64,000 nt of DNA, from positions 128,001 to 192,000 of the IMG/VR virus record IMGVR_UViG_3300017991_000003. One strand, given 5' to 3'. The notes beneath the pieces are model-generated. The model was not told the origin of the DNA and ran no database searches. It saw nothing but the letters and a program-made list of their open reading frames with translations. The first letter of the stretch is position 1. The number at the start of each line of letters is the position of its first letter. The stretch comes from a virus. Shown piece by piece: positions 4,391-31,805 of the stretch. Made by a program: the position numbers and the translations under genes.

Positions 4391-4400
4391 GACTTATGCC
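4391..4400 (-). promoter_or_regulatory. GKCATRAGTC motif copy 1 (GGCATAAGTC on minus strand), ~33 nt upstream of start of 3818..4357
   Basis: Same decamer seen upstream of three other leftward gene starts at similar distance. Confidence 0.4.
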
Positions 4401-4411
4401 ACAGTCCCTGG

Positions 4412-4448
4412 TCTAAAAAGAGAGCCCAACCCGAGGGGGTTGAGCTCT
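4412..4448 (-). terminator. putative intrinsic terminator (leftward)
   Basis: Imperfect ~12-bp stem (AGAGCCCAACCC / GGGTTGAGCTCT) followed on the minus strand by a T-run (CTCTTTTTAG); lies between the tRNA unit and the next leftward promoter motif. Confidence 0.4.
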
Positions 4449-5003
4449 CTGGAAGTGCCCGGGCCCGCCCCTTTCATCGCAGTCCAACGAGTGGGACAAG
4501 GGGGATGCCGTAAGGGCCCGGGCTTGTAGGTGCGGAGCCGTGCCAGGATCACGGCCCCGCGGTGCTGTGGAAGTAGCTTGGCCCCCCAAGGAGGTGGGAT
4601 GAGCCGCCGTAGCTACGATGAGGCTCGCAGTCGGGCATGGTGCTACCCGGCCAACAGCGTGGCGATACGCCGAGACCCGGATCGCCGCCGGATAAGGTGG
4701 CCCCCGTCGTGACGTGCTCAGCTCACGCTCGAGGGGTTGGAAGACCTGCCATCTAGGATCAGTGGGATCCCCATCCCTTTGCACTCCTCGGAGAGTGTGC
4801 CGCTCCTGCGGCTGATGTGATGGCAGGTGGAAGACACCCACAGGTAGCAAGAACCGGCCTGGATGACCTCTTCGTTGCCCTAGGACCGGGGTCAGAGCCT
4901 TCCGGGCGCGCCTGTGGGTGATTGGGAAAGCCGAGCACGTCATCAACGCCGCTTGTGCGTCTGCTTGGTTGGTGGAGACGTGTGACGCTGCTCGGCTTTT
5001 GTA

Positions 5004-5090
5004 TGGTGCAGGAAGGGGGACTCGAACCCCCACGCCCGGGTGGGCACGTGGACCTAAACCACGGGCGTCTACCGATTCCGCCACTCCTGC
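5004..5090 (-). tRNA. tRNA-Leu (anticodon TAG)
   Basis: Minus-strand sequence folds as a cloverleaf: 7-bp acceptor stem GCAGGAG/CTTCCTGC, anticodon stem CGTGG/CCACG with loop TTTAGGT (anticodon TAG), long variable arm, T-arm GGTTCGAGTCC, encoded CCA. Confidence 0.8.
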
Positions 5091-5164
5091 ATGTAAAGGC
5101 ATCGATGACCCGTGGGAGAGTTTCCCCACTCTGTGTTGAGCCCACAGATCATCGATGTGATTGA

Positions 5165-5250
5165 TGGTGCGGGAGGAGGGACTCGAACCCTCACGCCCGA
5201 AGGCAGTGGATTTTGAATCCACCGTGTCTACCGATTCCAACCACCCCCGC
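5165..5250 (-). tRNA. tRNA-Leu (anticodon CAA)
   Basis: Minus-strand cloverleaf: acceptor GCGGGGG, anticodon stem GTGGA/TCCAC with loop TTCAAAA (anticodon CAA), long variable arm, T-arm GGGTTCGAGTCCC, encoded CCA. Confidence 0.8.
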
Positions 5251-5432
5251 AGAGGGAGTGCCCCGCCGGCCGGAGCCGACGGGGCGAGTGCCTGTCTTTC
5301 CAGACTGTCCGCCCCGTTCGTATCATGCGCTAGGGGCTCTCGACAGTTCACTACGCCGCCATGCGGACGTCGGTGTTGGCATTTGAAAGCCAGAAGGTAC
5401 AGACGCCACCGGGCAACTATTCTCTGCTCGTA

Positions 5433-5461
5433 ACTATACCCGCGAGCACGTCGGGTTGAAA
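5433..5461 (-). promoter_or_regulatory. candidate sigma70-like promoter for the tRNA unit (-35 TTTCAA, 17-nt spacer, -10 TATAGT on minus strand)
   Basis: Hexamers with canonical spacing read directly from the minus strand; about 180 nt upstream of the tRNA-Leu(CAA) 5' end. Confidence 0.25.
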
Positions 5462-5504
5462 GGTGGGCTGCCGAGGACGCGCCTCGACAGCCCGTGGGGG
5501 ATCA

Positions 5505-6125
5505 TCAGAAGTCGGGACGCAGCGTGTCTGCCGCGATCAACGTCAACTCCGGAGCGGACGGAGCTCCGGTCACGACAGCCTGGGGATCCATCTGCGCCAC
5601 GGAGTGCAGCTCGTGCGTCTCCATGAGTCTAAGTAGCGCAAAGAATCCGTAGGCGCGCAGCTCGTCCTCTTCTGAGTCGGAGCGCGGCGCGTGCCTGATG
5701 AGGGCCCCCGGGACGAGGTCTGCGTCGGACAGCACCACCCAGTGATCTGTCCAGACAATCGGCTCCAGTTGAGGAACCAGCTGCGAAGCCACCAGGTCGG
5801 CTAGCCCTTCACTCAGCGGGAAGGGACGCTGAGGAGCGCACAGGTGCGTAAGCTCATGTGCGATCACGAAGCGCTGCCGGTACGGCGGCTGATCAAGCCA
5901 GTTCGGATGGAGCACGAGGTAGACCTCGTCCGCGGCATGGGCCACCAGAGCAAGCCTGTCGATCTCACTCGACACGCACACCTGGGGGACCACACCTCGG
6001 TCATGCCCGATCATCTGCACCACCTGTGGACGCAGTTCATCGAGCAGACCCTCAGCACGCTCGACGGCTGGGTGAGCGCTGGCGCAGGCAGCCAGCGGCA
6101 GGCAGGAGATGATCAAGGACTTCAC
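5505..6125 (-). CDS. putative secreted Zn-metallopeptidase (HExxH motif), GTG start
   Basis: Contains VIAHELTHL (HExxH); N-terminus from the GTG start (VKSLIISCLPLAACASA) looks like a signal peptide; GTG overlaps the stop of the upstream lipoprotein gene; the longer track ORF 5505..6275 has an Arg-rich N-terminal extension judged spurious. Confidence 0.5.
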   Translation of the reverse strand: MKSLIISCLPLAACASAHPAVERAEGLLDELRPQVVQMIGHDRGVVPQVCVSSEIDRLALVAHAADEVYLVLHPNWLDQPPYRQRFVIAHELTHLCAPQRPFPLSEGLADLVASQLVPQLEPIVWTDHWVVLSDADLVPGALIRHAPRSDSEEDELRAYGFFALLRLMETHELHSVAQMDPQAVVTGAPSAPELTLIAADTLRPDF

Positions 6126-7024
6126 GGGATCGGAACCCCCTGCTTCTCGATGGTCAGCGGGGTCACGAACCGCTCGCCCTGCGCGTACTGCATCAGGTCG
6201 AAGCGGATGCTCTCGAGCAGTCCCTCGCTGCCGAGGGGTAGGAGGCCGGCGTCGATGACGACCTCGCTGCCCCACAGCGCGGAGCCGGCCCGGGTCTTGG
6301 ACCAGGCCAGGGCGTGCTGGCTGCCGTCTTGGTAGCCGAGGCTACCGCTGGCGACCATGTCGGAGCTGTCGTTCAGCGCCCGGATCAGGAGCTTGCCCTG
6401 CCCGTGGTCGACGTAGGCGGTGACGGTGTAGGCCCAGAGAACGTCGTCGATCAGCTGGTTGATGGCCCAGTCCTCGCCGCCTGTGAGGTACCAGGCCTGC
6501 ACGATGGCGTGGGCCTCGACCTCGCTGGCGGCGGTCACCAGGAACTCACCGTAGGCGTCCATGTCGTCCTGGTGGTCGTAGGCGTCCACGGACGTCAAGG
6601 AGACCAGGAACTGCTGGAGCTCGTGGGGCTTGCTGAGATCGATGATCACCTGGTTGCCGCCGAGGGGACCGGACGTGGGTCGGCCGACGAGCTCGAGCTG
6701 CTGGGTCGCGTCGGCCAAGGTGCCTGAGAAGGTGGTGACCACGGAGCCCTCCGGAAGGAGGACCGCCGTACCGGGGGCGTACACCCCGGCGTAGCGGGCG
6801 CCGGACTTGGTGATGACCTCGACCCGGAGGTTGGTCGGGATGTCGGCCGGCACGTCACCTTGGAGGGTGCCGTCACCCTTCTTCTCCAGGCTGGCTTCCC
6901 AGCCCGAGAGCTGGACGGTGATGCCGTCACCCTCTTCGAGGTCGAGGACTTCCTCAGTCGCCGTACAGGCGACGAAGCTGAACATCAGCAGGATGAGGAG
7001 GATGAACGTGTGTTGGATGCGCAT
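6122..7024 (-). CDS. putative secreted lipoprotein (300 aa)
   Basis: Start chosen at internal ATG giving MRIQHTFILLILLMFSFVAC (hydrophobic signal with lipobox-like Cys); the track ORF extends to 7129. Confidence 0.55.
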   Translation of the reverse strand: MRIQHTFILLILLMFSFVACTATEEVLDLEEGDGITVQLSGWEASLEKKGDGTLQGDVPADIPTNLRVEVITKSGARYAGVYAPGTAVLLPEGSVVTTFSGTLADATQQLELVGRPTSGPLGGNQVIIDLSKPHELQQFLVSLTSVDAYDHQDDMDAYGEFLVTAASEVEAHAIVQAWYLTGGEDWAINQLIDDVLWAYTVTAYVDHGQGKLLIRALNDSSDMVASGSLGYQDGSQHALAWSKTRAGSALWGSEVVIDAGLLPLGSEGLLESIRFDLMQYAQGERFVTPLTIEKQGVPIP

Positions 7025-7109
7025 GGCGTCTCCTGTTGGGTTGGGTGGGAACAGTGGAGGCTCGAAGCCTCGGGGTATCAGTAGACTCGTGACACAAACC
7101 CGATAAGGT

Positions 7110-7541
7110 TTACAGCGAATCCAGGGCATCTAGGGCGTCTGTGAGGCCCTCAGCAGCCTCTTGAGCAGCGTCCGCCTTGGCGCTCTTCTTCCGCTTCTTC
7201 CCCTTCTTCTTGTGATGCAGGGCGGCCAGGCGAGCCCCCTGCTCCCGCTGAGCGTCCGTCACGGACTCCTCGCATAGGGTCTTGTACTCCGCCTCGGTGG
7301 GGATGACGCCCTCGGGTCGCGTCTTGGTGTCCGCGTAGGGGCGGTGGGCCCAGAAGAAGCAGACGTGGTCCGGGCAGTTCTTGATGGCGTCCCGGTAGCC
7401 CTCGTTGCCGACACAGGCTCGGCAGTTGAGGTCGACAGCGGATCGGAGGCTGCTACCGTGATCAGCTTTGACGGCGACGGTGGGGCGGGCGAGGCGGACG
7501 TCGTTCTCGACGCAATCGATGATGTCAGGCTTGGTGGTCAT
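7110..7541 (-). CDS. hypothetical Cys-containing protein with Lys-rich C-terminal region
   Basis: Track ORF 7110..7550; ATG at 7541 preferred (MTTKPDIID); conserved ~25-nt element abuts the start. Confidence 0.5.
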   Translation of the reverse strand: MTTKPDIIDCVENDVRLARPTVAVKADHGSSLRSAVDLNCRACVGNEGYRDAIKNCPDHVCFFWAHRPYADTKTRPEGVIPTEAEYKTLCEESVTDAQREQGARLAALHHKKKGKKRKKSAKADAAQEAAEGLTDALDALDSL

Positions 7542-7567
7542 GTGTGGCACTGGCTAGGAGTGTCAGG
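7542..7567 (-). repeat. copy (a) of conserved element CTGACACT-N5-CCAGTGCCA (minus orientation)
   Basis: Minus strand reads CTGACACTCCTAGCCAGTGCCACAC immediately 5' of the ATG of 7110..7541; matches copies near 15076, 39081, 45321, 63303. Confidence 0.6.
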
Positions 7568-7589
7568 GTGGGAAAACTGTCTCCATATC

Positions 7590-7618
7590 TTGACAGAGGG
7601 GCGCCGGCTAGGCACGAT
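7590..7618 (+). promoter_or_regulatory. candidate sigma70-like promoter (-35 TTGACA, 17-nt spacer, -10 CACGAT) for the rightward operon; predicts near-leaderless mRNA
   Basis: Perfect TTGACA hexamer 17 nt before a weak -10 that ends ~7 nt before the ATG at 7626. Confidence 0.3.
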
Positions 7619-7625
7619 CCCTGGC

Positions 7626-8141
7626 ATGGAAACGACAACGACAGAGGCCCGCCCTGAGCTACAGCTTCGGCCGTTGGCCGGGCGGGTGATGATTCGAGTG
7701 GACGAGGCCCCCACGATGAGCGCAGGTACGCGAGGCCGTCAGGTCTATCTACCCGAGAGCGTCCAGAAGGAGGAGAAGGCGAACTACCGGTTCGGTACGG
7801 TCGTGGCCCTAGGGGACCCCGCGCTGCATCCGAAGACCGGCAGGCCGATCCCGTGGGCTGTGCATGTAGGCACCAAGGTCTGCTTCCAGTTCGGGGCTGA
7901 CCTTACAGGTGAGCGAGAGCTCCAGTACACAGGAGGCGTGGCCCATGCGGTGTGCTTTGCTGAGGATCTGATTTACGCCATCGAGGATGATTATGAGATT
8001 CAGCCGACTCCCGTATGCCCCAACAGCGTAGGGGTTGCGCTACGCCGCGCTCTGATGAACGACGACTGGCTGACCGAGGAGCAGGTTGACACCCTGAGCC
8101 GGCGGCTCGCGTGCACGATTGCCGGGGTTGTGCCCGCGTGA
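7626..8141 (+). CDS. GroES/Cpn10-like co-chaperonin with C-terminal extension (171 aa)
   Basis: Internal ATG of track ORF 7344..8141; sequence LRPLAGRVMIRVDEAP...SAGT...GTVVALGDPAL...VHVGTKVCFQFGA...EDLIYAIED parallels the GroES pattern (RPLxDRVxV...SAGG...GxVVAVGxG...VKVGDxVxF...SDILAIxE). Confidence 0.6.
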   Translation: METTTTEARPELQLRPLAGRVMIRVDEAPTMSAGTRGRQVYLPESVQKEEKANYRFGTVVALGDPALHPKTGRPIPWAVHVGTKVCFQFGADLTGERELQYTGGVAHAVCFAEDLIYAIEDDYEIQPTPVCPNSVGVALRRALMNDDWLTEEQVDTLSRRLACTIAGVVPA

Positions 8142-8776
8142 GAATCGGCCGCACTTCCGATCTAGCGCCCTGGCCGCTCTTCATCGGCTTCTACACCCCG
8201 GAGTACGAGGAAGAGGCCGGGGAGCTTCGTAAGACCCTGGACGCGTTCGGGCTGCCACACGAGATCGAACCCGTCGAGTCCACGGGTAGCTGGTGGCTCA
8301 ACACGCAGATCAAGGCTCAGATCATTTTGCTCAAGCTACGGGATCACCTGGGTCGACCGCTGGTCTACCTGGACTGCGATGCCCGAGTCAGGCAGGCTCC
8401 TACCTTGTTCCGCTCCCTGCATCACCAGTGCGACTTCGCGGCTCACTTCCGACCGGATCGACGATTCGAATGCGGTCGAGAGCTTTTGAGCGGGACGCTG
8501 TACTTCAGCGGCTCGCCGGCTTGCCAGGGCCTGGTACAGGCTTGGATCGATGAGAATGAGCGCCAGGCTGCGATCAAGAGTAGCAACAAGCTCCGCCTCA
8601 TGGATCAGAGAACCTTGCAGACGGTCCTGGCTAAGGAGATCGAGGAGTACGGTCTTATGTTCACCGAGCTCCCTGCTACCTACGTTCAGATCTTCGACAT
8701 CATGCGCGACGCCGGCGACCCGGTGATCGAGCATCTCCAGGCCAGCCGCCGATTGAGGAACAAGGTTGGTCACTAG
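8111..8776 (+). CDS. putative nucleotide-sugar glycosyltransferase (GT-A fold, GT8-like)
   Basis: LVYLDCD (DxD-like) and MDQRTLQTVL (DQxxLN-like) motifs; alternative GTG start at 8138 would overlap the upstream stop by 4 nt. Confidence 0.5.
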   Translation: MHDCRGCARVRIGRTSDLAPWPLFIGFYTPEYEEEAGELRKTLDAFGLPHEIEPVESTGSWWLNTQIKAQIILLKLRDHLGRPLVYLDCDARVRQAPTLFRSLHHQCDFAAHFRPDRRFECGRELLSGTLYFSGSPACQGLVQAWIDENERQAAIKSSNKLRLMDQRTLQTVLAKEIEEYGLMFTELPATYVQIFDIMRDAGDPVIEHLQASRRLRNKVGH

Positions 8777-8788
8777 ACTCATGACTCA

Positions 8789-9547
8789 ATGAAGCGACTG
8801 ATCTACCAGGTCTGCGTTGGCCCGCCTGACCCGCTCTACGACAAGTGCACGCGCACTGTTGCGGCCTACTGCAAGCGCCTCGGCATCGCGTACATCAAGC
8901 AGACCGAGCCGGTCCTGAAGATCCGCCCGAACCCCGCTACGAGCGGGAGAAGCCAGAACGCTGTTGAACGACTAGGGTACCTGCCGATCTTCGAGAAGGA
9001 GAACGCACTCGCCCACCTTGGTGAGTTCGATCAGGTGGCCATTATCGACTCCGATATCTGGATCAGGGAGGAGGCACCCAACATCTTCGAGGAGCTCGAG
9101 GAGGGTGTTGACTTCATGGGGGTGGTCGAGCGAACCGCACCCATCACGCCGCAGTATGATCGGAAGCTCAAGAGCTACGCGCGCGGCCAGTACGGTCGTC
9201 CGGACTTCCCCTTCATGAACATGGGGCTCATGCTCATGAACAAGAGCCTGCGCCGCTTCTGCCCCGAGCCTCCTCGGGAGTTTCTGGCGCGTCCGGAGTT
9301 CCAGGCCTTCGTGGATGGGCGGGGGGCCTACAAGTGGAGCACGGACCAGACCCTGCTCAACACCTGGTTGACCAGCGATCCCGACATGGTCGTGAAGCCT
9401 CTCGACTGGCGGTGGAACGCCCTGTACGGGGCGCTGGTGCCCGGGTCGATAGAACAGGCCCACTTCGTTCACTTCTTCCTCAAGAACCACCTGGATAGCC
9501 AGGATCCCGACAAGCTCCTTCAGACACAAGGCCGCAAACGCGTTTAG
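8789..9547 (+). CDS. putative glycosyltransferase (GT8-like, nucleotide-diphospho-sugar transferase)
   Basis: AIIDSDIW (DxD), STDQTLLNTWL (DQxxLN-like) and C-terminal HFVHFF, as in GT8-type enzymes. Confidence 0.55.
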   Translation: MKRLIYQVCVGPPDPLYDKCTRTVAAYCKRLGIAYIKQTEPVLKIRPNPATSGRSQNAVERLGYLPIFEKENALAHLGEFDQVAIIDSDIWIREEAPNIFEELEEGVDFMGVVERTAPITPQYDRKLKSYARGQYGRPDFPFMNMGLMLMNKSLRRFCPEPPREFLARPEFQAFVDGRGAYKWSTDQTLLNTWLTSDPDMVVKPLDWRWNALYGALVPGSIEQAHFVHFFLKNHLDSQDPDKLLQTQGRKRV

Positions 9548-9551
9548 CCCC

Positions 9552-10229
9552 ATGAGCAAAGTACCACCCCTATTCATTCACGTACCGAAGACCGGTGGCA
9601 TGTCCGTGCACCATGGACTAGGCCGCCTGATCCGAGAGACGCTGTCTCGAGACAAGCTGAAGTCTCTGGACTACGCGGCGACGATCGAGCAGCACATGCG
9701 CTCCAAGGGTGAGCCTACTCCGGGGTACCGTCATGCCCGGTGGCGTGACGTCAAGCCGGGGTGGCGGGATAAGGGCCGCTGTTTCACGGTGCTGCGCAAT
9801 CCGTGGTCCCGTGTGGTCAGTCGCTACCGGTTCGGACTCAATACCTGGGCGACGCGTCCCTACAACTACACGAACTTCGAGGAGTTTCTTGCGGAGCATG
9901 AGGAGTGGGGCCAAGAGCCGTACTACTGGCACCGCGCCGTGCGGGGCTGGTACCCTGCGGTGGATCACGTGACGGACGGCCAGGGCAACCTCAAGTGCGA
10001 TGTTCTGCGTACGGAGCACCTGGACGATGACATCTGGGCCTACTTCGGGAAGCGGCTACCTCCGCGCCGACGCAACGTCACGCGCGGCGATGCCGTGGAC
10101 TACAAGACCTTCTACGACGATCGAACCATCCAGCTGGTGGCAGACTGGTATGCCGAGGACATTGAGATGTTCGGCTTTGACTTCGACACGCCGGCGACGA
10201 AGAACCTGTGGGAGGGCCTAGGAGCATGA
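9552..10229 (+). CDS. sulfotransferase-family protein
   Basis: N-terminal FIHVPKTGG (5'-phosphosulfate-binding type motif) and VLRNPWSRVVSRY (3'-phosphate-binding RxPxxRxxS type motif). Confidence 0.7.
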   Translation: MSKVPPLFIHVPKTGGMSVHHGLGRLIRETLSRDKLKSLDYAATIEQHMRSKGEPTPGYRHARWRDVKPGWRDKGRCFTVLRNPWSRVVSRYRFGLNTWATRPYNYTNFEEFLAEHEEWGQEPYYWHRAVRGWYPAVDHVTDGQGNLKCDVLRTEHLDDDIWAYFGKRLPPRRRNVTRGDAVDYKTFYDDRTIQLVADWYAEDIEMFGFDFDTPATKNLWEGLGA

Positions 10230-10783
10230 TGGTTGGCAAGAACCAGGGCAGTCTCCTGGTTGTGCAGCAGATCCCAGAGAACAGCGTGGGTGCCGAGCTC
10301 GGCGTCTGGCGCGGGGACACATCAGCCCGCTTCCTAGCTAGCGGTAAGATCAAGCACTTGCACCTGGTGGATGCTTGGAGTCCCGACCCTTACTACGGCA
10401 TCGAAGGCTACCGAGAGAAGTACGCCAAGCTGGTCGGATCGGGTGATCTCGACGCCTTTCGCGCCTACTACGACGCGGTCCTAGCCGGTGTCCGCAGGCG
10501 GTTTCAAGGCCAGCCCGTTACGATCCACCAAACCACTGTGCACGAGTTTCTGACTGAGCCCCCGGAGGATCTCGACTGGGTCTACGTGGACGCGAGTCAC
10601 GAGTACCTCGACGTCCTTGATGATCTCGAGCGCTGTGCCCGTCACGTGGATCTGATCTTTGGGGATGACTACGGCAACAAGCCAGGGGTGGTTCGCGCTG
10701 TCGACGAGTTTGATCGGACGCACCCCGAGTGGCACCTCCAGGTCCTGGGCAAGAACCAGTACCGCCTCGATAGGAAGGTCTGA
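10226..10783 (+). CDS. class I SAM-dependent methyltransferase (TylF/macrocin-O-MT-like)
   Basis: GAELGVWRGDTSARFL glycine-rich SAM-binding region and VYVDASHEY; ATG overlaps upstream stop (ATGA). Confidence 0.6.
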   Translation: MMVGKNQGSLLVVQQIPENSVGAELGVWRGDTSARFLASGKIKHLHLVDAWSPDPYYGIEGYREKYAKLVGSGDLDAFRAYYDAVLAGVRRRFQGQPVTIHQTTVHEFLTEPPEDLDWVYVDASHEYLDVLDDLERCARHVDLIFGDDYGNKPGVVRAVDEFDRTHPEWHLQVLGKNQYRLDRKV

Positions 10784-12879: not shown

Positions 12880-12883
12880 GTAG

Positions 12884-12903
12884 CTAAAACAACGTGTTGT
12901 TAG
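12884..12903. terminator. second near-palindrome CTAAAACAACGTGTTGTTAG
   Basis: Near-perfect palindrome 15 nt downstream of the first; tandem hairpins between convergent units. Confidence 0.45.
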
Positions 12904-14198: not shown

Positions 14199-14258
14199 GG
14201 TGTTGGGTGGTGAGGGTGTCTCCGGGTAGACATCCCCGGATCATTAGACTTATGCCCT
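14199..14258 (-). promoter_or_regulatory. shared leader (copy 1 of 42-nt direct repeat) plus GKCATRAGTC motif copy 2
   Basis: 42 nt identical to 15869..15910; contains TCCGGG/CCCGGA inverted repeat; GGCATAAGTC (minus) at ~14248-14257. Confidence 0.5.
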
Positions 14259-15483: not shown

Positions 15484-15868
15484 GGTTAGGAGGGGTTTGG
15501 CAGGTCTGGTAGATGCGGGCCATCTGGTCGAGCGCCGTCAACCGGATGGTGATGATCTTGCGGGCCACGTTTGCGACGGTCGCGCCACTGCCCTGCCGCA
15601 TCGACAGCTTGTGCGGCCGGGTCTGAAGGAGCTCAACGAGGTCCGTGTGAGCGAGGCGCTCGCGGAGGTCGGTGACGTACTCCGTGAGGAAGCCCTGAAG
15701 CTCCCCCGGCGGGTTGGCGGTCAGGACTGCCTTGGCCCTCGTGGGCGCGGTCCCGTCGAGCTGGCTCTGGAGGCGATCCCCGAAGGGAATCTGGGAGACC
15801 AGCTCGGCCCAGAGCCAGTCCCGGGCCAGGACCGCTGCCTGGCTGTAGATCTTGTCGGCGTGCTTCAT
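15476..15868 (-). CDS. hypothetical protein (130 aa)
   Basis: Track ORF; preceded by copy 2 of the 42-nt leader. Confidence 0.55.
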   Translation of the reverse strand: MKHADKIYSQAAVLARDWLWAELVSQIPFGDRLQSQLDGTAPTRAKAVLTANPPGELQGFLTEYVTDLRERLAHTDLVELLQTRPHKLSMRQGSGATVANVARKIITIRLTALDQMARIYQTCQTPPNHD

Positions 15869-15922
15869 GTTGGGTGGTGAGGGTGTCTCCGGGTAGACAT
15901 CCCCGGATCAAAGGACTCATGA
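15869..15922 (-). promoter_or_regulatory. shared leader (copy 2 of 42-nt direct repeat) plus variant motif GTCATGAGTC
   Basis: Identical to 14202..14244 over ~42 nt; variant of GKCATRAGTC immediately upstream. Confidence 0.5.
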
Positions 15923-16050
15923 CAGACCCAAGAGATGGGTTTGGCCCGCTAGTCCCTGGCACACATCCCGGCCTAGGCCCTAGACTTAGGACGAACCCTA
16001 AGGGCTCTTTCTGGGCCCCAAGTCCCCTTCTAACCGGATCCTGAGACACC

Positions 16051-22130: not shown

Positions 22131-22149
22131 CCTCTAACCCCACAGACTC

Positions 22150-22692
22150 ATGACGACCTCTATTCGAAAGCGGGTGAGCTGGTTCGGTGACCGGACCACG
22201 CGCATCCCCAAGCATCGCGGGCTTCACCCGAGCGGTACTCCGACGGAGATGCCTGAAGATGATGCCAACGACCTGATCCGAGACTATCCCAGTCACCTCG
22301 TGGTGGCTGACCCGATCACGTTGGTTGCGGAGCACATCGGTGAAGAGGTGGACCGGAAGGAGTTCTACGACGCTGGATACCGCTCCTACGGTACGCAGCC
22401 TGTGAAGTGGAAAGGCCCTGCGGTGACCTCGGTCACGCCGACGGCCAGCCCGGCTACGTCGCCTACGATCGTGTGGGACGCGATGCCCGCTCGGTTTGCT
22501 CCTCAGAGCTATCAGCTGTACCGAGGTACCGCGGCAGCGCCGAAAACGACGCTGGTGGGCTCGACTACCCTCCTGACGCTCAGCGAGGCCCCGCCGGCTC
22601 AAGGCACCTACATCTACAGCGTGACCTACACGGATCCCCACGGGTATGAGAGCGACGTCGGTACGTCGGTGTCTCACTACTCGTCTCCGTGA
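22150..22692 (+). CDS. tandem paralog of 21591..22130 (180 aa)
   Basis: Clear similarity to the preceding product along its length. Confidence 0.6.
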   Translation: MTTSIRKRVSWFGDRTTRIPKHRGLHPSGTPTEMPEDDANDLIRDYPSHLVVADPITLVAEHIGEEVDRKEFYDAGYRSYGTQPVKWKGPAVTSVTPTASPATSPTIVWDAMPARFAPQSYQLYRGTAAAPKTTLVGSTTLLTLSEAPPAQGTYIYSVTYTDPHGYESDVGTSVSHYSSP

Positions 22693-23738: not shown

Positions 23739-23740
23739 CT

Positions 23741-26029
23741 ATGTCGAAGAACCCCCTGAACCTGGGTAAGCACGCGGCACACTACGGTCAGATCGAAATG
23801 ATCGACGGGGCCTACCTGCTGAAAGGCACCGCCACCACGTACATGGTCCTGTACGGTGCCGGCACTGCGCTGGATCGGGGTCAGGTGACTGTGCTGGACG
23901 CTATTTCCGGTTACGCAGTGATCGACCGAGCTCTGGTAGGGGTACGCGGGGCTGGTAAGCTCAAGCCCGCAGCGCCGGTCGCGGCGATAAGCCATGAGGT
24001 CAAGGTGAGCGCTAAAGGCCCCATCCTGTCGACCTTGTATGAGGATGTCATTGACGGCATCACCCGCCGCCGGGAGCACGCCTACTGGGTTGAGGGTAAC
24101 TGCGTGCATGTGCTGATCTCTCAGCAGGGCGCGGGATCAACCGAGTATGAGTCCAACTACTCAGGGGTCTACGGCGGTCGCTTTGATGATGAGCTCGCCG
24201 CGGATCTGGTGGAGATGACGGGCACGCTGACGGTCCCCACTGTGTCGGCGATGATCAAGGAGTCGGGAGAGCCCGAGAAGCCGCGGTTCTTCTCGCACAT
24301 GATGGACCTTGGCTGGTCACACGCTTCGGCGTTTGATCTGCCTAACCCAGCTGTGGTCGAGGATCCACACGCCTGGACGTACTCTACTGCGGGTAAGTAC
24401 AAGAAGAACACCGCTGGAGCCCTGCAAGGGCCTCTTCAAGAGATGCTGCTGGGGTCCGCGTCGTATGACATCGTCGACTGCTTGGTCCACCCAGCACAGT
24501 CCGCTCCCCGTATTCCCAAGCGATCACTACAGCCTTGGACGCTCTTGACCAGTCGCGGCGAGTCGTGGGATCACTTCGAGAAGTACCTCGAGTGGCGTGC
24601 GGAGATGGGTATGACCAGTGGGGTGATCTACCCCATGTTCTGGTGGCAGGAGATCAACTACCCTCCGAGCGTGGTTCAGGCCAACGGCCAGCACTGGTAT
24701 CCCGCCGGCGATCACGAGGGTTTCGCCAGCTTCTGCGCTATGGCCCGTGCGCTTGGCTTCGACGTCGGCGGCTACACCTTGTGGGGCATTCAGAAGGAGA
24801 CTGTCCCTAACTACAACCCAGGTGATCGGGTACTCGAGAGCAGCGGTGCCCCGCGCCCGTCGGTGTGGGAGTCCAATGTGTGGCTTAGTCGGGAAGAGCA
24901 GACGCAGAAGTACATGGACCTGTACCTGCCTAAGCTTCGAGATGAGTACCACTGGAGCATGATCTTCTACGACGTGGAGACCTACGCAGATCCCACGCAC
25001 GGCAACGGGGATCACGTGGACATGACGGCCGGCAGCCTGTGCGGAACGCTGGCTGGCTGCATCGCTGCGCGTCGAGAATGGATGCAGTACGGACAGGACG
25101 TCCTAGGCCCGGACGCGTTTGCTCATGGCGAAGGTAGTCGAGGCGGCTACCTAAATGATCAGGAGTACCTGTGGGCCGGTGTGATGACTGGCTTGAACAA
25201 GTCGATCAACACCAACAGCGGTAAGGAGGAGATCCAGACCACCGACCCTGATCGCACGATGCTCAGCTGGCCTATGGCTCTTGAGTACGTGTGGGCCGTG
25301 GAGAACCAGGTGTTCGCTCATACGCCTAACTTCCCAGGACGCACCTTCTCCCCCAACGACGCGAGTCTCCAAGACCCCGGAGTCGGCGGCCTCTTCCCAT
25401 TCAGTGTGAAGATGGTGGATGCGCTACGAGCTGTGAACTTGATGCACGGCCGTATGGGTGCTCTTCCGATCAATGGACAAGGGCACGAGGCTTTCCTGTC
25501 AAAGCGCGAGCAGGTCAAGGAGTACTACATCGCCTCGGCGATCTCAGCCTTCACGCGTGACCTCAGCGTCCCCACGATCCACTACCACAGCGACGAGCAC
25601 GGCTATGAGACCTTCTCGCAGCGCTACGCTCGTACAGGTCTAGACGGCTTCCGCCGTACACGTGTACGCCTGGTCTTCGAGTCAGGTCTCGAGGTCTATG
25701 TGAGCCTGGACAAGCAGCCGTGGGTTCTGCCTGACCGGTTTGGTGTGACGATCGAGGAGTTCGGCTACTTCTGCTTTGGGTCGGTCAACAACACGCTGGT
25801 GGTGGGCGGTAGTTGCTCCGCTCCCGTCACAGGCAACAAGCGGGTTGACTTCGTCATGATCCCCGGCGTGCTCACGGCGGTGGATGGTCGCGGTGAGGTG
25901 ACGAACTTCCTCGGCATGCCCGTGCCCGGAGGCCGGCTAGTGGTGCGCGACTACAAGAGGCAGTTCGTGATCAATGAGGGCACTGACGGGGTGCTGCACA
26001 AGTCGCTGACTACCTCGCACGGGTTCTAG
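23741..26029 (+). CDS. hypothetical large protein (762 aa), function unknown
   Basis: Long ORF, aromatic-rich globular composition, last gene before the convergent terminator. Confidence 0.65.
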   Translation: MSKNPLNLGKHAAHYGQIEMIDGAYLLKGTATTYMVLYGAGTALDRGQVTVLDAISGYAVIDRALVGVRGAGKLKPAAPVAAISHEVKVSAKGPILSTLYEDVIDGITRRREHAYWVEGNCVHVLISQQGAGSTEYESNYSGVYGGRFDDELAADLVEMTGTLTVPTVSAMIKESGEPEKPRFFSHMMDLGWSHASAFDLPNPAVVEDPHAWTYSTAGKYKKNTAGALQGPLQEMLLGSASYDIVDCLVHPAQSAPRIPKRSLQPWTLLTSRGESWDHFEKYLEWRAEMGMTSGVIYPMFWWQEINYPPSVVQANGQHWYPAGDHEGFASFCAMARALGFDVGGYTLWGIQKETVPNYNPGDRVLESSGAPRPSVWESNVWLSREEQTQKYMDLYLPKLRDEYHWSMIFYDVETYADPTHGNGDHVDMTAGSLCGTLAGCIAARREWMQYGQDVLGPDAFAHGEGSRGGYLNDQEYLWAGVMTGLNKSINTNSGKEEIQTTDPDRTMLSWPMALEYVWAVENQVFAHTPNFPGRTFSPNDASLQDPGVGGLFPFSVKMVDALRAVNLMHGRMGALPINGQGHEAFLSKREQVKEYYIASAISAFTRDLSVPTIHYHSDEHGYETFSQRYARTGLDGFRRTRVRLVFESGLEVYVSLDKQPWVLPDRFGVTIEEFGYFCFGSVNNTLVVGGSCSAPVTGNKRVDFVMIPGVLTAVDGRGEVTNFLGMPVPGGRLVVRDYKRQFVINEGTDGVLHKSLTTSHGF

Positions 26030-26030: not shown

Positions 26031-26056
26031 TAAAAAAGAGCCCCGAAGGGCTCCTA
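26031..26056. terminator. bidirectional intrinsic terminator candidate (AAAAAAGAGCCCCGAAGGGCTC)
   Basis: 6-bp GC-rich stem with CGAA-type loop preceded by an A-run; between convergent genes 23741..26029 and 26075..26578. Confidence 0.5.
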
Positions 26057-29413: not shown

Positions 29414-30377
29414 TTTGAATCTCCGGGGCGGTGTGGTCAGTACAGAAACGGCTACCCTCAATGGTGTCGGCGTTGCACCGGGGCTCCCCGATAGGGTGGA
29501 CGGGACACTTGCCCGGGGCGGCGGGCTCGGTGCGGGCGGCCTCCTCGTCGAGGCGCTCCTCGTCGTCCACGAACTTGCACGACGGGCAGAACGGGCCGGG
29601 GTGGTTATGCCCGGCGGTGAACGGACCAACCGTGTCGTCGCAGGACACGCAAGTCAGGGGCCCATCCGGGGCGGCGGGGCGGTTATCCCACCATGCAGCA
29701 CCTTTCGGGTTGCCGTGGCCGCACCCATCCTCCGAGGAGCCGCACTCCTCACAGAAGGTGTCGCCCGGCAGCGGCTGATCATGCAGGTCGCACGGCCCCG
29801 CCTCGAACGGTAGGCGTTTGAAGCGGGTGGCGTTCACCGCCTCGATGGCTCGCTCGGACCACGGGTTGACCTCGGGCTCGGTGCGGGCCAGGGCGGTGTC
29901 GAGGCGTTCCCAGAAGTCCCCAGGCGCGGGGCGGGAAAAGTAGCTCATCTTGGGCGACCGGGAGTGCTGTTTCATCTCGGCACCAAGCGCCTCCAGCGCC
30001 CGGATCCGCTCGGCCAGGGCGTTGCGCTCGGCTTCGAGTTCCCGCTCGCGCTCGGCGGACTCGACGCGGAGTTTGACGTACCCAGCGCCCACCTCTTCGA
30101 GCTTGCGTTGGAGGTCGGCCTCGCGTTCGGCGGACTCCTCGACCTGTACGGCCATGACCTTCACGCAGTCGTTCACGTTGTCGTGCGGGCAGTCGCCGGT
30201 CGCGCAGCCGTGCCATTGGGGCTCGCGCTCGGCGGGCTCGCGGCCAGCACGGATCAGGCGGGCGGCATTGTGGTAGTTAGCCTGGTCCTCCGTGTTGCCT
30301 TGTAGGCGCGACTCCTCCTCTCGGAGCGCCAGGAACTCCAGCGTCCACTCGAGGCTCGGGGTGGGGTGGTTACTCAT
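29403..30377 (-). CDS. hypothetical multi-Cys (zinc-binding-like) protein (324 aa), paralog family member
   Basis: Internal ATG (MSNHPTPSLEW) of track ORF 29403..30833; at least eight CxxC/CxnC pairs; the Arg-rich N-terminal extension is judged spurious. Confidence 0.55.
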   Translation of the reverse strand: MSNHPTPSLEWTLEFLALREEESRLQGNTEDQANYHNAARLIRAGREPAEREPQWHGCATGDCPHDNVNDCVKVMAVQVEESAEREADLQRKLEEVGAGYVKLRVESAERERELEAERNALAERIRALEALGAEMKQHSRSPKMSYFSRPAPGDFWERLDTALARTEPEVNPWSERAIEAVNATRFKRLPFEAGPCDLHDQPLPGDTFCEECGSSEDGCGHGNPKGAAWWDNRPAAPDGPLTCVSCDDTVGPFTAGHNHPGPFCPSCKFVDDEERLDEEAARTEPAAPGKCPVHPIGEPRCNADTIEGSRFCTDHTAPEIQNDH

Positions 30378-30534
30378 CGGTCTGCTCCGGTGTGTAGGGG
30401 TTGTCGGTCGGGTCCTGGCCGAAGGCGTGGTTCCACCCCAAAGCGTACGCCTCGGCCTTCGCGGCCTGGATCGCGGCGTAGAGGGCGGACTCGGCGGCGT
30501 CGCGGTCCCGCATCCTCCAAGGGCGTGGGTCCAT
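30370..30534 (-). CDS. questionable small ORF (54 aa)
   Basis: C-terminal in-frame part of track ORF 30370..30912 starting at MDPRPWRM; fills the gap between neighbours. Confidence 0.2.
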   Translation of the reverse strand: MDPRPWRMRDRDAAESALYAAIQAAKAEAYALGWNHAFGQDPTDNPYTPEQTDE

Positions 30535-30592
30535 GCAATACTGCGACTGCGCCGAGATGGCCTGGCGGACCTCCTTCTCGCACGGTCGGGGG

Positions 30593-30916
30593 CTATCCAC
30601 GGGCGGCCTCCTGCGCGGCCCGACGGACCGCATCCAGCTCCTTCTTCCTGGTTGCCGCCCAGTCCTTCGCTTTGAAGTAGGCGGACTCGGCCACGCGCAG
30701 CGCCCGGTCCCACGCCTCGGCCTCCGTCGGACACCAATCCTCGATCGAGACCGTGGTGAGGTGCTCGGTGGCGCGGCACCGCTCCACGCGGATCTGCTTC
30801 GCGGTCCGCTTGAGGACGGGGACGACGAAGCACTTGGGTGTCGGGTCGTTGTAGCTCGCGGACCGCACAACGTAGTGGAACTCTTCGTCTTGGTTCGGGG
30901 TCGGTTGGTCACTCAT
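30593..30916 (-). CDS. hypothetical protein (107 aa), paralog family member
   Basis: Internal ATG (MSDQPTPNQDEE) of track ORF 30593..31036; 5' end similar at DNA level to the 29403..30377 start region. Confidence 0.5.
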   Translation of the reverse strand: MSDQPTPNQDEEFHYVVRSASYNDPTPKCFVVPVLKRTAKQIRVERCRATEHLTTVSIEDWCPTEAEAWDRALRVAESAYFKAKDWAATRKKELDAVRRAAQEAARG

Positions 30917-30953
30917 CGGTCTTGTCCTCCTTGGGGTCGAGCCAGGGGGCGGC

Positions 30954-31151
30954 TCATTGGAAATCCTCATGCCCCGAGTCGCGGAGCCTCTTGATTTCGC
31001 CCTGTGCCCAGTCCAGGCACTCACGAGAGTGGGCAATCAGCGCTTCAGCCTTGTGAATCGACTCCCTGTGCTTCTTGACCCATGCTGTGAGGCTGTCACG
31101 TATGGATTCGTCGCGCGGGCGAAGCCCATGGAATCTGTAGAAGGCGATCAT
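30954..31151 (-). CDS. hypothetical small protein (65 aa)
   Basis: Track ORF; 4-nt overlap with upstream gene. Confidence 0.4.
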   Translation of the reverse strand: MIAFYRFHGLRPRDESIRDSLTAWVKKHRESIHKAEALIAHSRECLDWAQGEIKRLRDSGHEDFQ

Positions 31152-31393
31152 CGCGGGCCCTCCTGCTCCAGGTGGGCGTCGATCAGGTCCAGCATTTCCA
31201 GGGCATCCTGGAGGGCTTCCTCCTTAGAGTAGCGCCACTCCCTCTCCCCGCTGTAGGAGAGGAAACCCTGCCAGAACCCGCCGGCCATGCGGTCGAGGCG
31301 GTCTCGGCGGACTTCTTTCGGAGATTGAGGGGCCGGCAGGACCCCCTCGGCGACGAGGTTCCTCACGACAAACTCAATGTCATTGCTATTCAT
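31148..31393 (-). CDS. hypothetical protein (81 aa)
   Basis: Track ORF; overlaps both neighbours. Confidence 0.45.
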   Translation of the reverse strand: MNSNDIEFVVRNLVAEGVLPAPQSPKEVRRDRLDRMAGGFWQGFLSYSGEREWRYSKEEALQDALEMLDLIDAHLEQEGPR

Positions 31394-31757
31394 CGCTTCC
31401 CCCCTGCTCCCCGAGGAGCGCGGCGAGGCGAGTTGAAACGGTAGCGGTGTGGTTCGTCTTCATTGGATACCCCACGTGGTGCAGGAAGGGTTGCAGCTGG
31501 AACAACACCTCCCGGGCCTCAAGGGCGTAGGCCAGGAGGGCGGGGGCGGCGGCAAGAAGTGCGACGAAAGCGTCCAACTCTTTACGAGGCACATCATGAG
31601 GCGCACTACACGACGCCATGAACTTGTTCTCCTTCGTGGGCTTGTCTAGCCGCACGGAGTCGCGAAGCGTGTAGATCAGGCGGTCTTCGACAAGGAGTTC
31701 GGGTATGTGTCCGGCCAGTGCGTCCAGGTCGAGCTCGTTGTAGTGGGTGGGGTTCAT
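31386..31757 (-). CDS. hypothetical protein (123 aa)
   Basis: Track ORF 31386..31826 trimmed to internal ATG (MNPTHYNELDL) so that the conserved upstream motif is non-coding. Confidence 0.5.
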   Translation of the reverse strand: MNPTHYNELDLDALAGHIPELLVEDRLIYTLRDSVRLDKPTKENKFMASCSAPHDVPRKELDAFVALLAAAPALLAYALEAREVLFQLQPFLHHVGYPMKTNHTATVSTRLAALLGEQGGSDE

Positions 31758-31787
31758 TGTTCGGTCCGTGGTAAGAGAAACAGGCGT

Positions 31788-31805
31788 CAGTGGACTTATG
31801 CCACG
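31788..31805 (-). promoter_or_regulatory. GKCATRAGTC motif copy 4 (GGCATAAGTC on minus strand), ~35 nt upstream of start at 31757
   Basis: Same decamer and spacing as copies at ~4391, ~14248 and variant at ~15912. Confidence 0.4.

What the first reader, a model, noticed from the sequence alone, without database searches (positions are those of the whole stretch)
4391..31805. GKCATRAGTC motif 33-48 nt upstream of four leftward gene starts; two units share an identical 42-nt leader
On the minus strand GGCATAAGTC occurs upstream of the starts at 4357, 14198 and 31757, and GTCATGAGTC upstream of 15868. The units starting at 14198 and 15868 additionally share an identical ~42-nt segment (contains a TCCGGG/CCCGGA stem and a C-rich tract ending at the ATG) although their proteins are unrelated. 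No canonical -35 sits at a fixed distance, so this may be a promoter for a non-standard sigma/RNA polymerase or a regulator binding site; the shared leader could be a translational operator. The leaders lack Shine-Dalgarno sequences.
Basis: seen in the sequence. Interest (0 to 1): 0.55.

Follow-up and report, generated by a model that had tools for sequence, protein, structure and literature searches.

The report
Phage-specific promoter-like motif heading leftward operons
A short, sharply defined DNA motif sits in front of the leftward gene blocks of an uncharacterised high-GC phage and of its relatives. It is most likely a phage-specific promoter that does not match the standard bacterial type, which is a real but fairly ordinary kind of phage regulatory signal.

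Summary
The window is about 63% GC and comes from a tailed phage with almost no recognisable genes.

- **Sites.** GKCAYRAGTC occurs 7 times, not 4. The full form is GKCAYRAGTC-YNN-TGAY. All sites are on the minus strand, all are intergenic and all lie in the left arm. A weight matrix separates them cleanly from everything else.
- **Position.** Five sites lie 33-59 nt upstream of minus-strand starts. They follow terminators or sit in divergent gaps. Two sites lie antisense, in 12- and 19-nt gaps between plus-strand genes.
- **Conservation.** Related phages carry the motif at the orthologous place after a conserved HTH gene, and again after a terminator, although the downstream genes are unrelated.
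- **Shared leader.** It is 43 nt and 100% identical. The identity begins at the conserved TGA.

Best reading (confidence about 0.55): a phage-specific promoter with a single -10-like element and no -35, starting at the TGA. It is read by an unidentified factor and is organised as composite terminator/promoter cassettes that resemble T4 PeSLs. Rivals are an asymmetric regulator site (stoperator-like), an RNA signal, and a nick site.

Missing Shine-Dalgarno sequences are genome-wide here (26% of genes have one), so they are not special to these leaders. The translational-operator idea is unsupported. Interest is moderate.

The parts
4384..4400 (-). M1 site GGCATAAGTC-TCATGTC. It lies 33 nt upstream of the ATG at 4357 and heads a 12-gene leftward operon.
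   Evidence: 22.1 bits. It lies about 14 nt downstream of the intrinsic terminator's T-run.
4414..4450 (-). Intrinsic terminator: a 14-bp stem followed by a CUCUUUUU run. It ends the tRNA unit just upstream of the M1 site at 4391.
   Evidence: -26.4 kcal/mol, z = -2.3. Sequence.
7077..7093 (-). M1 site GTCACGAGTC-TACTGAT. It lies between the stop at 7110 and the start at 7024, and is followed by the 5' hairpin GAGGCU-UCG-AGCCUC.
   Evidence: 24.6 bits.
8769..8785 (-). M1 site GTCATGAGTC-TAGTGAC in the 12-nt gap between plus-strand genes 8138-8776 and 8789-9547. It is antisense to the local genes.
   Evidence: 27.7 bits. It shares AGTCTAGTGACC with the M1 site at L015 14485.
14240..14256 (-). 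M1 site GGCATAAGTC-TAATGAT in the divergent gap 14199-14357. It heads the operon that starts at 14198.
   Evidence: 28.2 bits.
14201..14243 (-). Shared 43-nt leader, copy 1. It begins at the TGA of M1, carries the hairpin UCCGGG/CCCGGA (14221-14240), and continues as an unstructured C-rich tract to the ATG.
15907..15923 (-). M1 site GTCATGAGTC-CTTTGAT in the divergent gap 15869-16050. It heads the operon that starts at 15868.
   Evidence: 24.1 bits.
15868..15910 (-). Shared 43-nt leader, copy 2, 100% identical to 14201-14243.
15976..15992 (-). Weak M1-like sequence GTCCTAAGTCTAGGGCC in the same gap. It is the only other matrix hit above 9 bits.
   Evidence: 10.2 bits. Its status is uncertain.
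22138..22154 (-). M1 site GTCATGAGTC-TGTGGGG in the 19-nt gap before plus-strand gene 22150-22692. It overlaps that gene's ATG and is antisense to it. It is the weakest member of the set.
   Evidence: 15.1 bits. Both the gene and the site are absent from relative L007.
31786..31802 (-). M1 site GGCATAAGTC-CACTGAC, 35 nt upstream of the ATG at 31757 and downstream of the HTH_3 gene. It is conserved at the orthologous place in L015, L016 and L019.
   Evidence: 27.3 bits.
31778..31816 (-). A 16-bp hairpin that encloses the M1 core and is followed by UGUUUCUCUU. It is probably a terminator or operator overlapping the promoter.
   Evidence: z = -3.7, and -4.6 and -5.9 in the relatives; 4 of 16 pairs show compensatory changes among 3 phages.
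31821..31840 (-). M2 palindrome GACACTAGGTACCAGTGCCA. Its TGA is the stop codon of the HTH gene. It lies directly upstream of the M1 hairpin.
31839..32039 (-). HTH_3 (Cro/cI-type) regulator gene, the second gene of the P_L operon. It is a candidate regulator of the adjacent site.
   Evidence: PF01381, E = 3.9e-7. It is conserved in the relatives.
32938..32966 (-). P_L, a canonical sigma-70-like promoter TTGACA-17-TATCTT in the divergent switch region. It shows that the host-type promoter differs from M1.
   Evidence: The TTGACA is conserved in L015.
26036..26055 (-). Intrinsic terminator that ends the leftward unit starting at the M1 site at 31793.

Best explanation
M1 (GKCAYRAGTC-YNN-TGAY) is most likely the core of a phage-specific promoter class for the leftward early or middle operons of an uncultured tailed phage.

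**Proposed mechanism (inferred).**
- It is a single-element promoter. CAYRAG sits where a -10 hexamer would be, with the A at -11 kept and G in place of T at -7.
- An invariant G lies at the extended -10 position, with T before it in 4 of 7 sites.
- There is no -35 element.
- Transcription starts at the conserved TGA, 6-7 nt downstream.
- The promoter is not read by the host housekeeping holoenzyme alone. That enzyme presumably serves the TTGACA-17-TATCTT promoter P_L and the tRNA promoter. M1 is read by host RNA polymerase redirected by an unidentified phage factor, or by an unidentified phage polymerase.

**Organisation.**
- M1 forms composite terminator/promoter cassettes. At 4391 and at L015 14485 it follows an intrinsic terminator.
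- After the HTH gene it sits inside a conserved hairpin followed by a U-rich tract. Transcripts from P_L would form the hairpin and stop. Transcripts started at M1 would lack the 5' arm of the hairpin and continue.
- The two 43-nt identical leaders are a duplicated 5' UTR that begins at the predicted start.
- The two antisense copies would make antisense RNAs across plus-strand gene islands.

**Status.** The motif, its placement and its conservation are shown. The start site, the factor that reads it and the antisense RNAs are inferred.
For: 1. All 7 sites are intergenic, on one strand and sharply separated from background.
2. Three sites head units where a promoter is required, and no sigma-70-like promoter was detected there. 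The gaps 14199-14357 and 15869-16050 are divergent. The site at 4391 lies about 14 nt after the T-run of a strong terminator, and the 64 nt before the ATG contain no TAnnnT hexamer.
3. The spacing from the -10-like core to the invariant TG(A) fits a start 6-7 nt downstream.
4. The identity between the two leaders starts exactly at that TGA. The 13 nt upstream differ only at the degenerate positions of the motif.
5. Relatives keep M1 after the HTH gene, GTGGCATRAGTCCACTGAC, although the downstream genes are not homologous.
6. L015 repeats the order palindrome, terminator, M1, C-rich leader, ATG.
7. L016 has GGTATAAGTA-CTC-TGAT at that place, which is closer to TATAAT.
8. Canonical sigma-70-like promoters exist elsewhere in the phage and differ from M1.
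9. Three of five leaders begin with a hairpin within 3-9 nt of the TGA. From general knowledge, 5'-terminal hairpins can stabilise mRNAs.
Against: - There are no transcription start data.
- No sigma factor, RNA polymerase or activator was identified. Pfam, PHROGs and PDB sequence searches gave nothing, the DxDGD motif is absent from the giant proteins, and the AlphaFold model of the first P_L gene product was unusable.
- Two of 7 sites are antisense, in tiny gaps between plus-strand genes with no minus-strand gene nearby.
- In L019 the motif lies inside a called 64-aa ORF.
- The L007/L017 lineage lacks M1 at the orthologous place.
- The 17-mer has partial dyad symmetry (CA..AG-T-CT..TG), as a dimer binding site would.
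- At the post-HTH site the motif is embedded in a covarying palindrome that could be the actual functional unit there.
- The host is unknown.
Confidence: 0.55

Rival explanations
1. M1 is an asymmetric binding site for a phage regulator, acting as an operator and as a roadblock like the stoperators of cluster A mycobacteriophages. Candidates are one of the two HTH_3 proteins or an unrecognised repressor. Binding would shut off or block transcription through the left arm, and the real promoters would be separate or overlapping elements.
For: - The sites are short, asymmetric and placed in short intergenic spaces, including 12- and 19-nt gaps inside operons. This matches the published description of L5-type sites (PMC9283540).
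- The phage has a divergent switch region with HTH_3 genes.
- The post-HTH copy lies in a covarying palindrome typical of an operator.
- The 17-mer has partial dyad symmetry.
Against: - Stoperator orientation follows the direction of transcription. Here 2 of 7 sites are reversed relative to the local genes.
- There are only 7 sites, all in one arm, and none in the 31-kb right arm or in 13 kb of flanking sequence.
- Three sites head units where no other promoter candidate is seen.
- The left half of the motif is much better conserved than the right, and the palindrome is present at only one site.
- No L5 gp71-like repressor was detected.
Confidence: 0.2
2. M1 acts in RNA, as a processing, stability or antitermination signal within transcripts that start further upstream. 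The model would be a linear box followed by a hairpin, like a nut site, or a loop-displayed motif as at the post-HTH site.
For: - At the post-HTH site the motif sits in the apical part of a strongly predicted, covarying hairpin in three phages.
- At 14247, 15914 and 7084 a hairpin follows the motif.
- All copies lie on the strand that leftward transcripts would carry.
Against: - In the two divergent gaps and after the strong terminator at 4419-4450 there is little or no room for an upstream promoter.
- There is no common secondary-structure context across sites.
- The leader hairpin is not more stable than in shuffled sequence.
- No Rfam family matches.
Confidence: 0.1
3. M1 marks site-specific single-strand nicks in virion DNA, as in T5, phiKMV-like and tf/LUZ24-like phages.
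For: - All copies are on one DNA strand regardless of local gene orientation.
- The reverse complement, GACTYRTGMC, resembles the tf nick consensus TACT/RTGMC (PMC3517423).
Against: - The resemblance needs one extra base and a different first base. The tf paper reports that substitutions at positions 1, 3 and 4 abolish nicking.
- Nick sites have no reason to be strictly intergenic, to lie 33-59 nt before start codons, to follow terminators, or to be confined to one arm.
- Conservation together with the leader and hairpin context points to gene expression.
Confidence: 0.05
4. M1 is mainly a recombination boundary sequence that mediates cassette shuffling, with no direct role in expression.
For: - Homology between relatives ends at or just after M1. 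This holds at the post-HTH junction and at the L015/L016 breakpoint just upstream of M1.
- The M1 site at 22145 sits at the edge of a gene that is absent from L007.
- The leader is duplicated.
Against: - A 10-17-nt element is short for homologous exchange.
- The strict orientation and the spacing to start codons are better explained by expression.
- In T4 PeSLs, shuffling is a by-product of promoter/terminator cassettes (PMC2839356).
Confidence: 0.05

Closest known systems
PeSL (promoter-early stem-loop) regulatory cassettes of T4-like phages (PMC2839356, PMC4122927)
   Same: - Small repeated intergenic cassettes that combine a promoter with a stem-loop or terminator.
- They flank small genes of unknown function.
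- Unrelated genes share near-identical cassette sequence.
- Homology between related phages breaks at the cassettes.
   Different: - PeSL promoters are strong sigma-70-like early promoters. M1 has no -35 and a non-canonical -10.
- Only one clear cassette duplication is seen here.
- The phage is unrelated to T4.
- Promoter and terminator activity were shown experimentally for PeSLs and not here.
Single-element promoters read by phage-redirected host RNA polymerase, such as T4 late promoters (TATAAATA with gp55) and the -35-less middle and late promoters of Thermus phage P23-45. Both examples are recalled from memory and were not checked here.
   Same: - A short conserved -10-region element with no -35.
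- Many copies, all pointing in the direction of the genes they serve.
- Distinct from the host-type promoters used for the earliest genes.
   Different: - The sequence is unrelated.
- No gp55-like or other specificity factor was identified.
- The temporal class is unknown.
Stoperators and operators of cluster A mycobacteriophages such as L5 (PMC9283540)
   Same: - Asymmetric sites of about 13 nt in short intergenic spaces.
- Some sites overlap promoters.
   Different: - More than 20 sites spread genome-wide, against 7 in one arm here.
- Stoperator orientation tracks the direction of transcription. Two of 7 M1 sites violate this.
- No gp71-like repressor was found.
Localized nick consensus of Pseudomonas phage tf, 5'-TACT/RTGMC-3' (PMC3517423)
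   Same: - All sites lie on one strand.
- The M1 reverse complement GACTYRTGMC shares ACT and RTGMC with the tf consensus.
   Different: - M1 has one extra base and a different first base.
- M1 is strictly intergenic and tied to start codons.
- Physical nicks have not been tested.

Membership tests
Sigma-70 (housekeeping) promoter | A -35 hexamer close to TTGACA, 16-18 nt upstream of the -10. | tested here: not met
   No conserved column appears upstream of the motif in the 7-site alignment. The consensus scan finds no such promoter at any M1 site.
Sigma-70 (housekeeping) promoter | A -10 hexamer TAnnnT, with A at -11 and T at -7. | tested here: not met
   The best register is CAYRAG. The A at -11 is present, but -12 is C and -7 is G in all 7 sites. 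Only the L016 variant reads TATAAG.
Sigma-70 (housekeeping) promoter | A mapped transcription start 6-8 nt downstream of the -10. | not testable with these tools
   A conserved TGA lies at the right distance, but no RNA data are available.
Sigma-54 promoter | A GG at -24 and a GC at -12 separated by exactly 10 nt (TGGCAC-N5-TTGC). | tested here: not met
   TGGCAT is present at only 2 of 7 sites. No site has GC at the required spacing, and the GTCATGAGTC variants lack the GG (inspection).
T7-like single-subunit RNA polymerase promoter | A conserved block of about 20 bp, together with a phage gene for a T7-like polymerase (Pfam PF00940). | tested here: not met
   The conserved block is 10-17 nt. 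No PF00940 hit was found in any large ORF of the window, and none is listed in the precomputed Pfam calls for the contigs that cover the left part of the window and 13 kb of flanks.
PeSL-type promoter/stem-loop cassette | A composite of a promoter and a stem-loop or terminator, repeated in intergenic regions. | tested here: met
   A terminator precedes M1 at 4391 and at L015 14485. A hairpin encloses M1 at 31793. M1 is followed by a hairpin at 14247, 15914 and 7084.
PeSL-type promoter/stem-loop cassette | The promoter part is a strong sigma-70-like early promoter. | tested here: not met
   See the sigma-70 rows above.
PeSL-type promoter/stem-loop cassette | The cassettes are points of exchange between otherwise unrelated genes in related phages. 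| tested here: met
   The post-HTH cassette is conserved while the downstream genes are not homologous in the window, L015 and L019. L015 and L016 diverge just upstream of M1. The 43-nt leader is shared by unrelated genes.
Stoperator (cluster A mycobacteriophage) | Asymmetric sites of about 13 nt in short intergenic spaces and at promoters. | tested here: met
Stoperator (cluster A mycobacteriophage) | Site orientation correlates with the direction of transcription, and there are more than 20 sites across the genome. | tested here: not met
   Two of 7 sites oppose the local genes. There are 7 sites, all in the left arm.
Stoperator (cluster A mycobacteriophage) | A monomeric gp71-type repressor binds the site. 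| not testable with these tools
   Only short HTH_3 proteins were recognised.
Localized nick site (tf type) | The consensus TACT/RTGMC. | tested here: not met
   The M1 reverse complement is GACTYRTGMC, with one extra base and G at position 1.
Localized nick site (tf type) | Physical nicks on one strand of virion DNA. | not testable with these tools
   All sites are on one strand, but no virion DNA or read-level data are available.

The most novel reading that the evidence does not exclude
M1 is the promoter of a previously unknown transcription system. An unrecognised phage-encoded specificity factor or polymerase, hidden among the ORFans or giant proteins of this lineage, would read a single 10-17-nt element. 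The system would also fire antisense into the plus-strand islands for tail-fibre-like and glycan-modification genes, with the M2 palindromes as the downstream ends of these units. Each M1 site is followed on the same strand by an M2 palindrome or an intrinsic terminator, except the site at 14247, for which none was identified.
Probability: 0.2. Interest if true: 0.7.

Novelty: new variant of a known kind. Interest (0 to 1): 0.4.

Why it matters
If M1 is a promoter class, it gives a first regulatory map of a tailed-phage lineage from hypersaline and aquatic metagenomes in which almost no gene can be annotated.

- It separates host-type transcription units (P_L, P_R, the tRNA genes) from phage-specific ones.
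- It predicts a missing specificity factor that could be searched for among the first P_L genes.
- It offers a second, independent example of terminator/promoter cassettes acting as seams of gene shuffling outside T4-like phages.

In practice, the 17-mer is specific enough to mark operon starts in related contigs.

Tried and rejected
**Searches that found nothing**
- No DNA or protein similarity to cultured phages.
- No relatives in the species-representative genome collection.
- Three of the four viral-collection protein or DNA-pattern scans aimed at left-arm or M1 sequences returned nothing.
- Homology searches for the 300-aa and 285-aa proteins returned only the proteins themselves.
- The exhaustive HMMER search gave 3 homologues of the 285-aa protein. 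These led to the informative relatives.
- Full-text searches for the motif sequence returned only primer sequences.
- A search for phiC31 early promoters and conserved inverted repeats found no paper in the library.

**Analyses that did not help**
- AlphaFold of the 285-aa product of the first P_L gene gave pLDDT 43, so no fold search was run.
- Pfam, PHROGs and PDB sequence searches of the large and early proteins found no sigma factor or polymerase. DxDGD is absent from the giant proteins.

**Readings rejected**
- Sigma-54, ECF-type, T7-like and archaeal TATA-box promoters were rejected by inspection. The spacing or the defining bases are absent, and the tRNA genes look bacterial.
- Chance was rejected.
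- Avoidance of the motif in coding sequence because of its stop codons was considered. It affects only one reading frame per strand and cannot explain 7 of 7 sites being intergenic.

**Host not identified**
- The M2 palindrome gave 20 single hits in unrelated taxa in the genome collection, which is about what chance predicts.

Full report
**Setting**

The window is about 63% GC and comes from an uncultured tailed phage. A baseplate-wedge family hit is almost the only structural annotation. There are giant ORFs of 3406, 1512, 1405 and 1262 aa with no Pfam, PHROG or PDB sequence match. There is no similarity to cultured phages. Two tRNA-Leu genes look bacterial, with encoded CCA ends.

Genes diverge from a switch region near 32.9 kb. 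The right arm is entirely plus-strand. The left arm is mainly minus-strand, with three plus-strand islands at 7716-12646, 14358-15062 and 16051-26029. Independent gene calls on identical JGI and ENA contigs agree with this map for the part of the window they cover, about 1-17200 and 53100-64000.

**The observation**

The two proteins behind the shared leader are unrelated.

Aligning all seven extends the motif to GKCAYRAGTC-YNN-TGAY, with nothing conserved upstream.

- All seven sites are on the minus strand, and all fall in the 6.2% of the window that is intergenic.
- For the three sites that played no part in defining the motif, the chance of being intergenic and on that strand is about 3e-5.
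- Among 2755 10-mer words that occur three or more times, only the two M1 variants and one word of a different palindrome are wholly intergenic.
- One-mismatch variants are not enriched.
- A weight matrix scores the seven sites at 15-28 bits and nothing else above 10.2 bits on either strand.
- No further copies occur in 3.9 kb to the left or 9.3 kb to the right of the window.

The motif is real, sharply defined and confined to the left arm.

**Context of each site**

- **4391.** It lies about 14 nt after the T-run of a strong intrinsic terminator that closes the tRNA unit. It heads a 12-gene operon.
- **14247 and 15914.** Both lie in divergent gaps where the upstream neighbour is on the other strand, so a promoter must be present. 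The sigma-70 scan finds none there.
- **7084 and 31793.** Both lie between co-oriented genes.
- **8776 and 22145.** They lie in 12- and 19-nt gaps between plus-strand genes and point against them.

Canonical promoters do exist in this phage, and M1 is a different kind of signal from them. P_L is TTGACA-17-TATCTT at 32966-32938. A TATAAT lies at about 33014 for the right arm. TTCAAC-16-TATAGT lies upstream of the tRNA genes.

**Comparative evidence**

The first relative found, IMGVR_UViG_3300008255_000132 (identical to Ga0210043_1000064), is collinear in the right arm at 55-78% amino-acid identity. It shares no left-arm early genes beyond the 285-aa and HTH genes, and it has no M1 after its HTH gene.

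An exhaustive search with the first P_L gene product found three homologues. Their contigs all show the same module: a baseplate-like gene facing a 285-aa-like gene, an HTH_3 gene and then early genes.

In two of these three lineages the gap after the HTH gene contains M1 at the orthologous position:
- window: GGCGTCcGTGGCATAAGTCCACtGACGCC
- L015 and L016: GGGCGTCtGTGGCATGAGTCCACtGACGCCC
- L019: GGGTGTCcGTGGCATGAGTCCACtGACACCC

The only change inside M1 is at its degenerate R position. The genes downstream are not homologous.

L015 has a second copy, GGCATAAGTCTAGTGAC. Its context runs in this order: the stop codon inside a palindrome, an intrinsic terminator, M1, a 52-nt C-rich leader without a Shine-Dalgarno sequence, and the ATG. 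L016 shares the sequence up to just before this point and then carries GGTATAAGTA-CTC-TGAT, which is closer to TATAAT.

**What it most likely is**

The simplest account is a promoter.
- In the register where CAYRAG is the -10 hexamer, the A at -11 is invariant, a G occupies the extended -10 position (with T before it in 4 of 7 sites), and the invariant TG(A) falls where transcription should begin.
- The -7 position is G, not T, and there is no -35. Housekeeping holoenzyme alone is therefore an unlikely reader.
- The 43-nt identity between the two leaders begins exactly at the TGA. The 13 nt upstream differ at five positions, all of them degenerate in the consensus. This is what is expected if the duplicated unit is a 5' UTR placed behind two variant promoters.
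- Three of five leaders would start with a hairpin a few nucleotides from the 5' end. The remainder of each leader is G-poor and unstructured.

After the HTH gene, M1 lies in the apical part of a 16-bp hairpin followed by a U-rich tract. The hairpin is strongly predicted in three phages (z = -3.7 to -5.9). Four of its 16 pairs show compensatory changes. A transcript coming from P_L would form this hairpin. A transcript starting at the TGA inside its 3' arm could not. This reading makes the element a terminator with a promoter built into it, but the same palindrome could equally be an operator for the adjacent HTH protein.

**The two antisense sites**

These sites are the weak point of the promoter reading. 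The site at 8776 matches the full 17-mer and shares 12 nt with the well-placed L015 copy. The site at 22145 is the weakest member and abuts a paralogous extra gene that L007 lacks.

On the minus strand each M1 site is followed by either a second motif (M2, see below) or an intrinsic terminator, except 14247:
- 22145 by M2 at 18272
- 15914 by M2 at 15078
- 8776 by M2 at 7545
- 4391 by M2 just beyond the window
- 31793 by the terminator at 26055
- 7084 by the terminator at 4450

For the site at 14247 no downstream M2 or terminator was identified. The pattern is compatible with discrete leftward units, two of them antisense, but this is an inference.

**Rivals**

- **Asymmetric regulator site (stoperator-like).** This explains the tiny-gap sites well (PMC9283540). 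It fails on orientation and on site number, and it leaves three operons without a promoter.
- **RNA signal.** This fits the hairpin-embedded copy. It does not fit the sites that have no room for an upstream start.
- **Nick site.** This is suggested by the single-strand distribution and by the resemblance of the reverse complement GACTYRTGMC to the tf consensus TACT/RTGMC (PMC3517423). The match needs an inserted base, and nicking does not explain the intergenic placement or the spacing to start codons.

Only 17 of 66 genes have a Shine-Dalgarno core at -17 to -4. The lack of one is therefore a property of the genome and presumably of the host. The 7024 leader has AGGAG.

The leader hairpin (-12 kcal/mol) is not more stable than in shuffled sequence (z = -0.7). 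Nothing supports a translational operator beyond the fact of identity.

**Comparison with known systems**

The closest analogue in organisation is the PeSL cassette of T4-like phages (PMC2839356, PMC4122927). The closest analogues in logic are the single-element promoters read by phage-redirected host polymerase. These are recalled from memory and were not tested here. M1 is not a member of the sigma-70, sigma-54 or T7-type promoter families, and it does not meet the stoperator or tf-nick definitions.

**Verdict**

M1 is a real, conserved regulatory motif. It is most probably a phage-specific promoter class arranged as terminator/promoter cassettes. The factor that reads it and the host are both unknown. 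It is a new variant of a familiar kind of phage signal, and its interest is moderate.

Noticed in passing
window 7545-7564(-), 15078-15097(-), 18272-18291(-), 31821-31840(-), 35902, 36325, 37522, 39085, 45325, 52569, 63305 (+); L005 18140: A second motif, M2: (C)TGACACTGGnnnCCAGTGCCA, a near-palindrome with a 6-9 bp stem and a 3-nt loop.
- There are 11 sites, against 0.64 expected by chance.
- Orientation follows the genome arm, not the local gene strand.
- Several sites sit right at gene 3' ends, with the motif's TGA serving as the stop codon.
- Five sites lie inside plus-strand ORFs, four of them in the 3406-aa gene, and all five are in the same codon phase.
   Followed up: partly
L001 1585, 7856, 21501; L015 5354, 11241, 14397; L019 1259: Relatives carry different palindromes at the positions equivalent to M2. 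Examples are CTGGTACCGGnnnCCAGTACCA and CTGATACTGGnnnCCAGTATCAG, including one inside the giant-gene orthologue (L001 1585, equivalent to window 39085). The stems co-vary, which implies selection at the DNA or RNA level that overrides the protein sequence.
   Followed up: partly
L009 9510, L010 6135, L011 5736 (IMGVR_UViG_3300018080_003942, 91.6 kb): An unrelated phage from the same sample, with similar GC content and no protein homology to the window, carries exact M2 copies at gene 3' ends or convergent junctions. M2 is not multi-copy in any species-representative genome (20 single hits, about the chance level).
   Followed up: partly
window 32902-33061; L007 about 9900-10000; L015 9907-10000: The divergent switch region. 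P_L (TTGACA-17-TATCTT) and the rightward TATAAT both follow GGTGTCTAT. TATAATCCGTTGAGCC and the P_L TTGACA are conserved in relatives.
   Followed up: partly
window 22150-22692 (+): This 180-aa gene is a diverged paralogue of the preceding 179-aa gene (21591-22130). It is absent from relatives L007 and L016. The antisense M1 copy sits exactly at its 5' junction and overlaps its ATG.
   Followed up: partly
window 7716-12646 (+): A plus-strand island inside the leftward arm. It encodes two GT25 glycosyltransferases, three methyltransferase-domain proteins and a faint sulfotransferase hit. It is probably a glycan or LPS modification cassette, and a TTGACA-17-CACGAT promoter-like site lies upstream at about 7570-7600.
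   Followed up: no
window 35054-45274 (+) and other giant ORFs (17806-21594, 53160-57377, 58761-63299; a 1724-aa ORF in L012): A 3406-aa ORF and four other ORFs longer than 1200 aa have no Pfam, PHROG or PDB sequence match. The 3440-aa orthologue in L015 has only a weak Laminin_G_3 hit. No terminase, portal, polymerase or integrase was recognised in about 77 kb.
   Followed up: partly
window leaders of the starts at 7024, 14198, 15868 and 28145: A recurrent CCACCCAAC-like tract lies 0-18 nt upstream of these start codons. Leaders are G-poor (0-16% G), and only 26% of genes have a Shine-Dalgarno core. This suggests a host with little Shine-Dalgarno use, or Shine-Dalgarno-independent initiation.
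   Followed up: partly
window 5004-5090, 5165-5250 (-), promoter about 5433-5460, terminator 4414-4450: Two tRNA-Leu genes (anticodons TAG and CAA) form their own small unit with a sigma-70-like promoter and a strong terminator.
   Followed up: partly
window 5505-6275 and 6122-7129 (-): Two overlapping minus-strand ORFs lie downstream of a protein with a weak small-terminase hit (7110-7541). They could be a split or frameshifted gene. Neither has a Pfam hit.
   Followed up: no
L007 4250-4950 and 7620-7950: The relative has 85-nt repeats about 600 bp apart, and clusters of CCTTTGCTAA / CCTTTACTAA direct and inverted repeats in its non-homologous left arm. These may be iterons or an origin.
   Followed up: no
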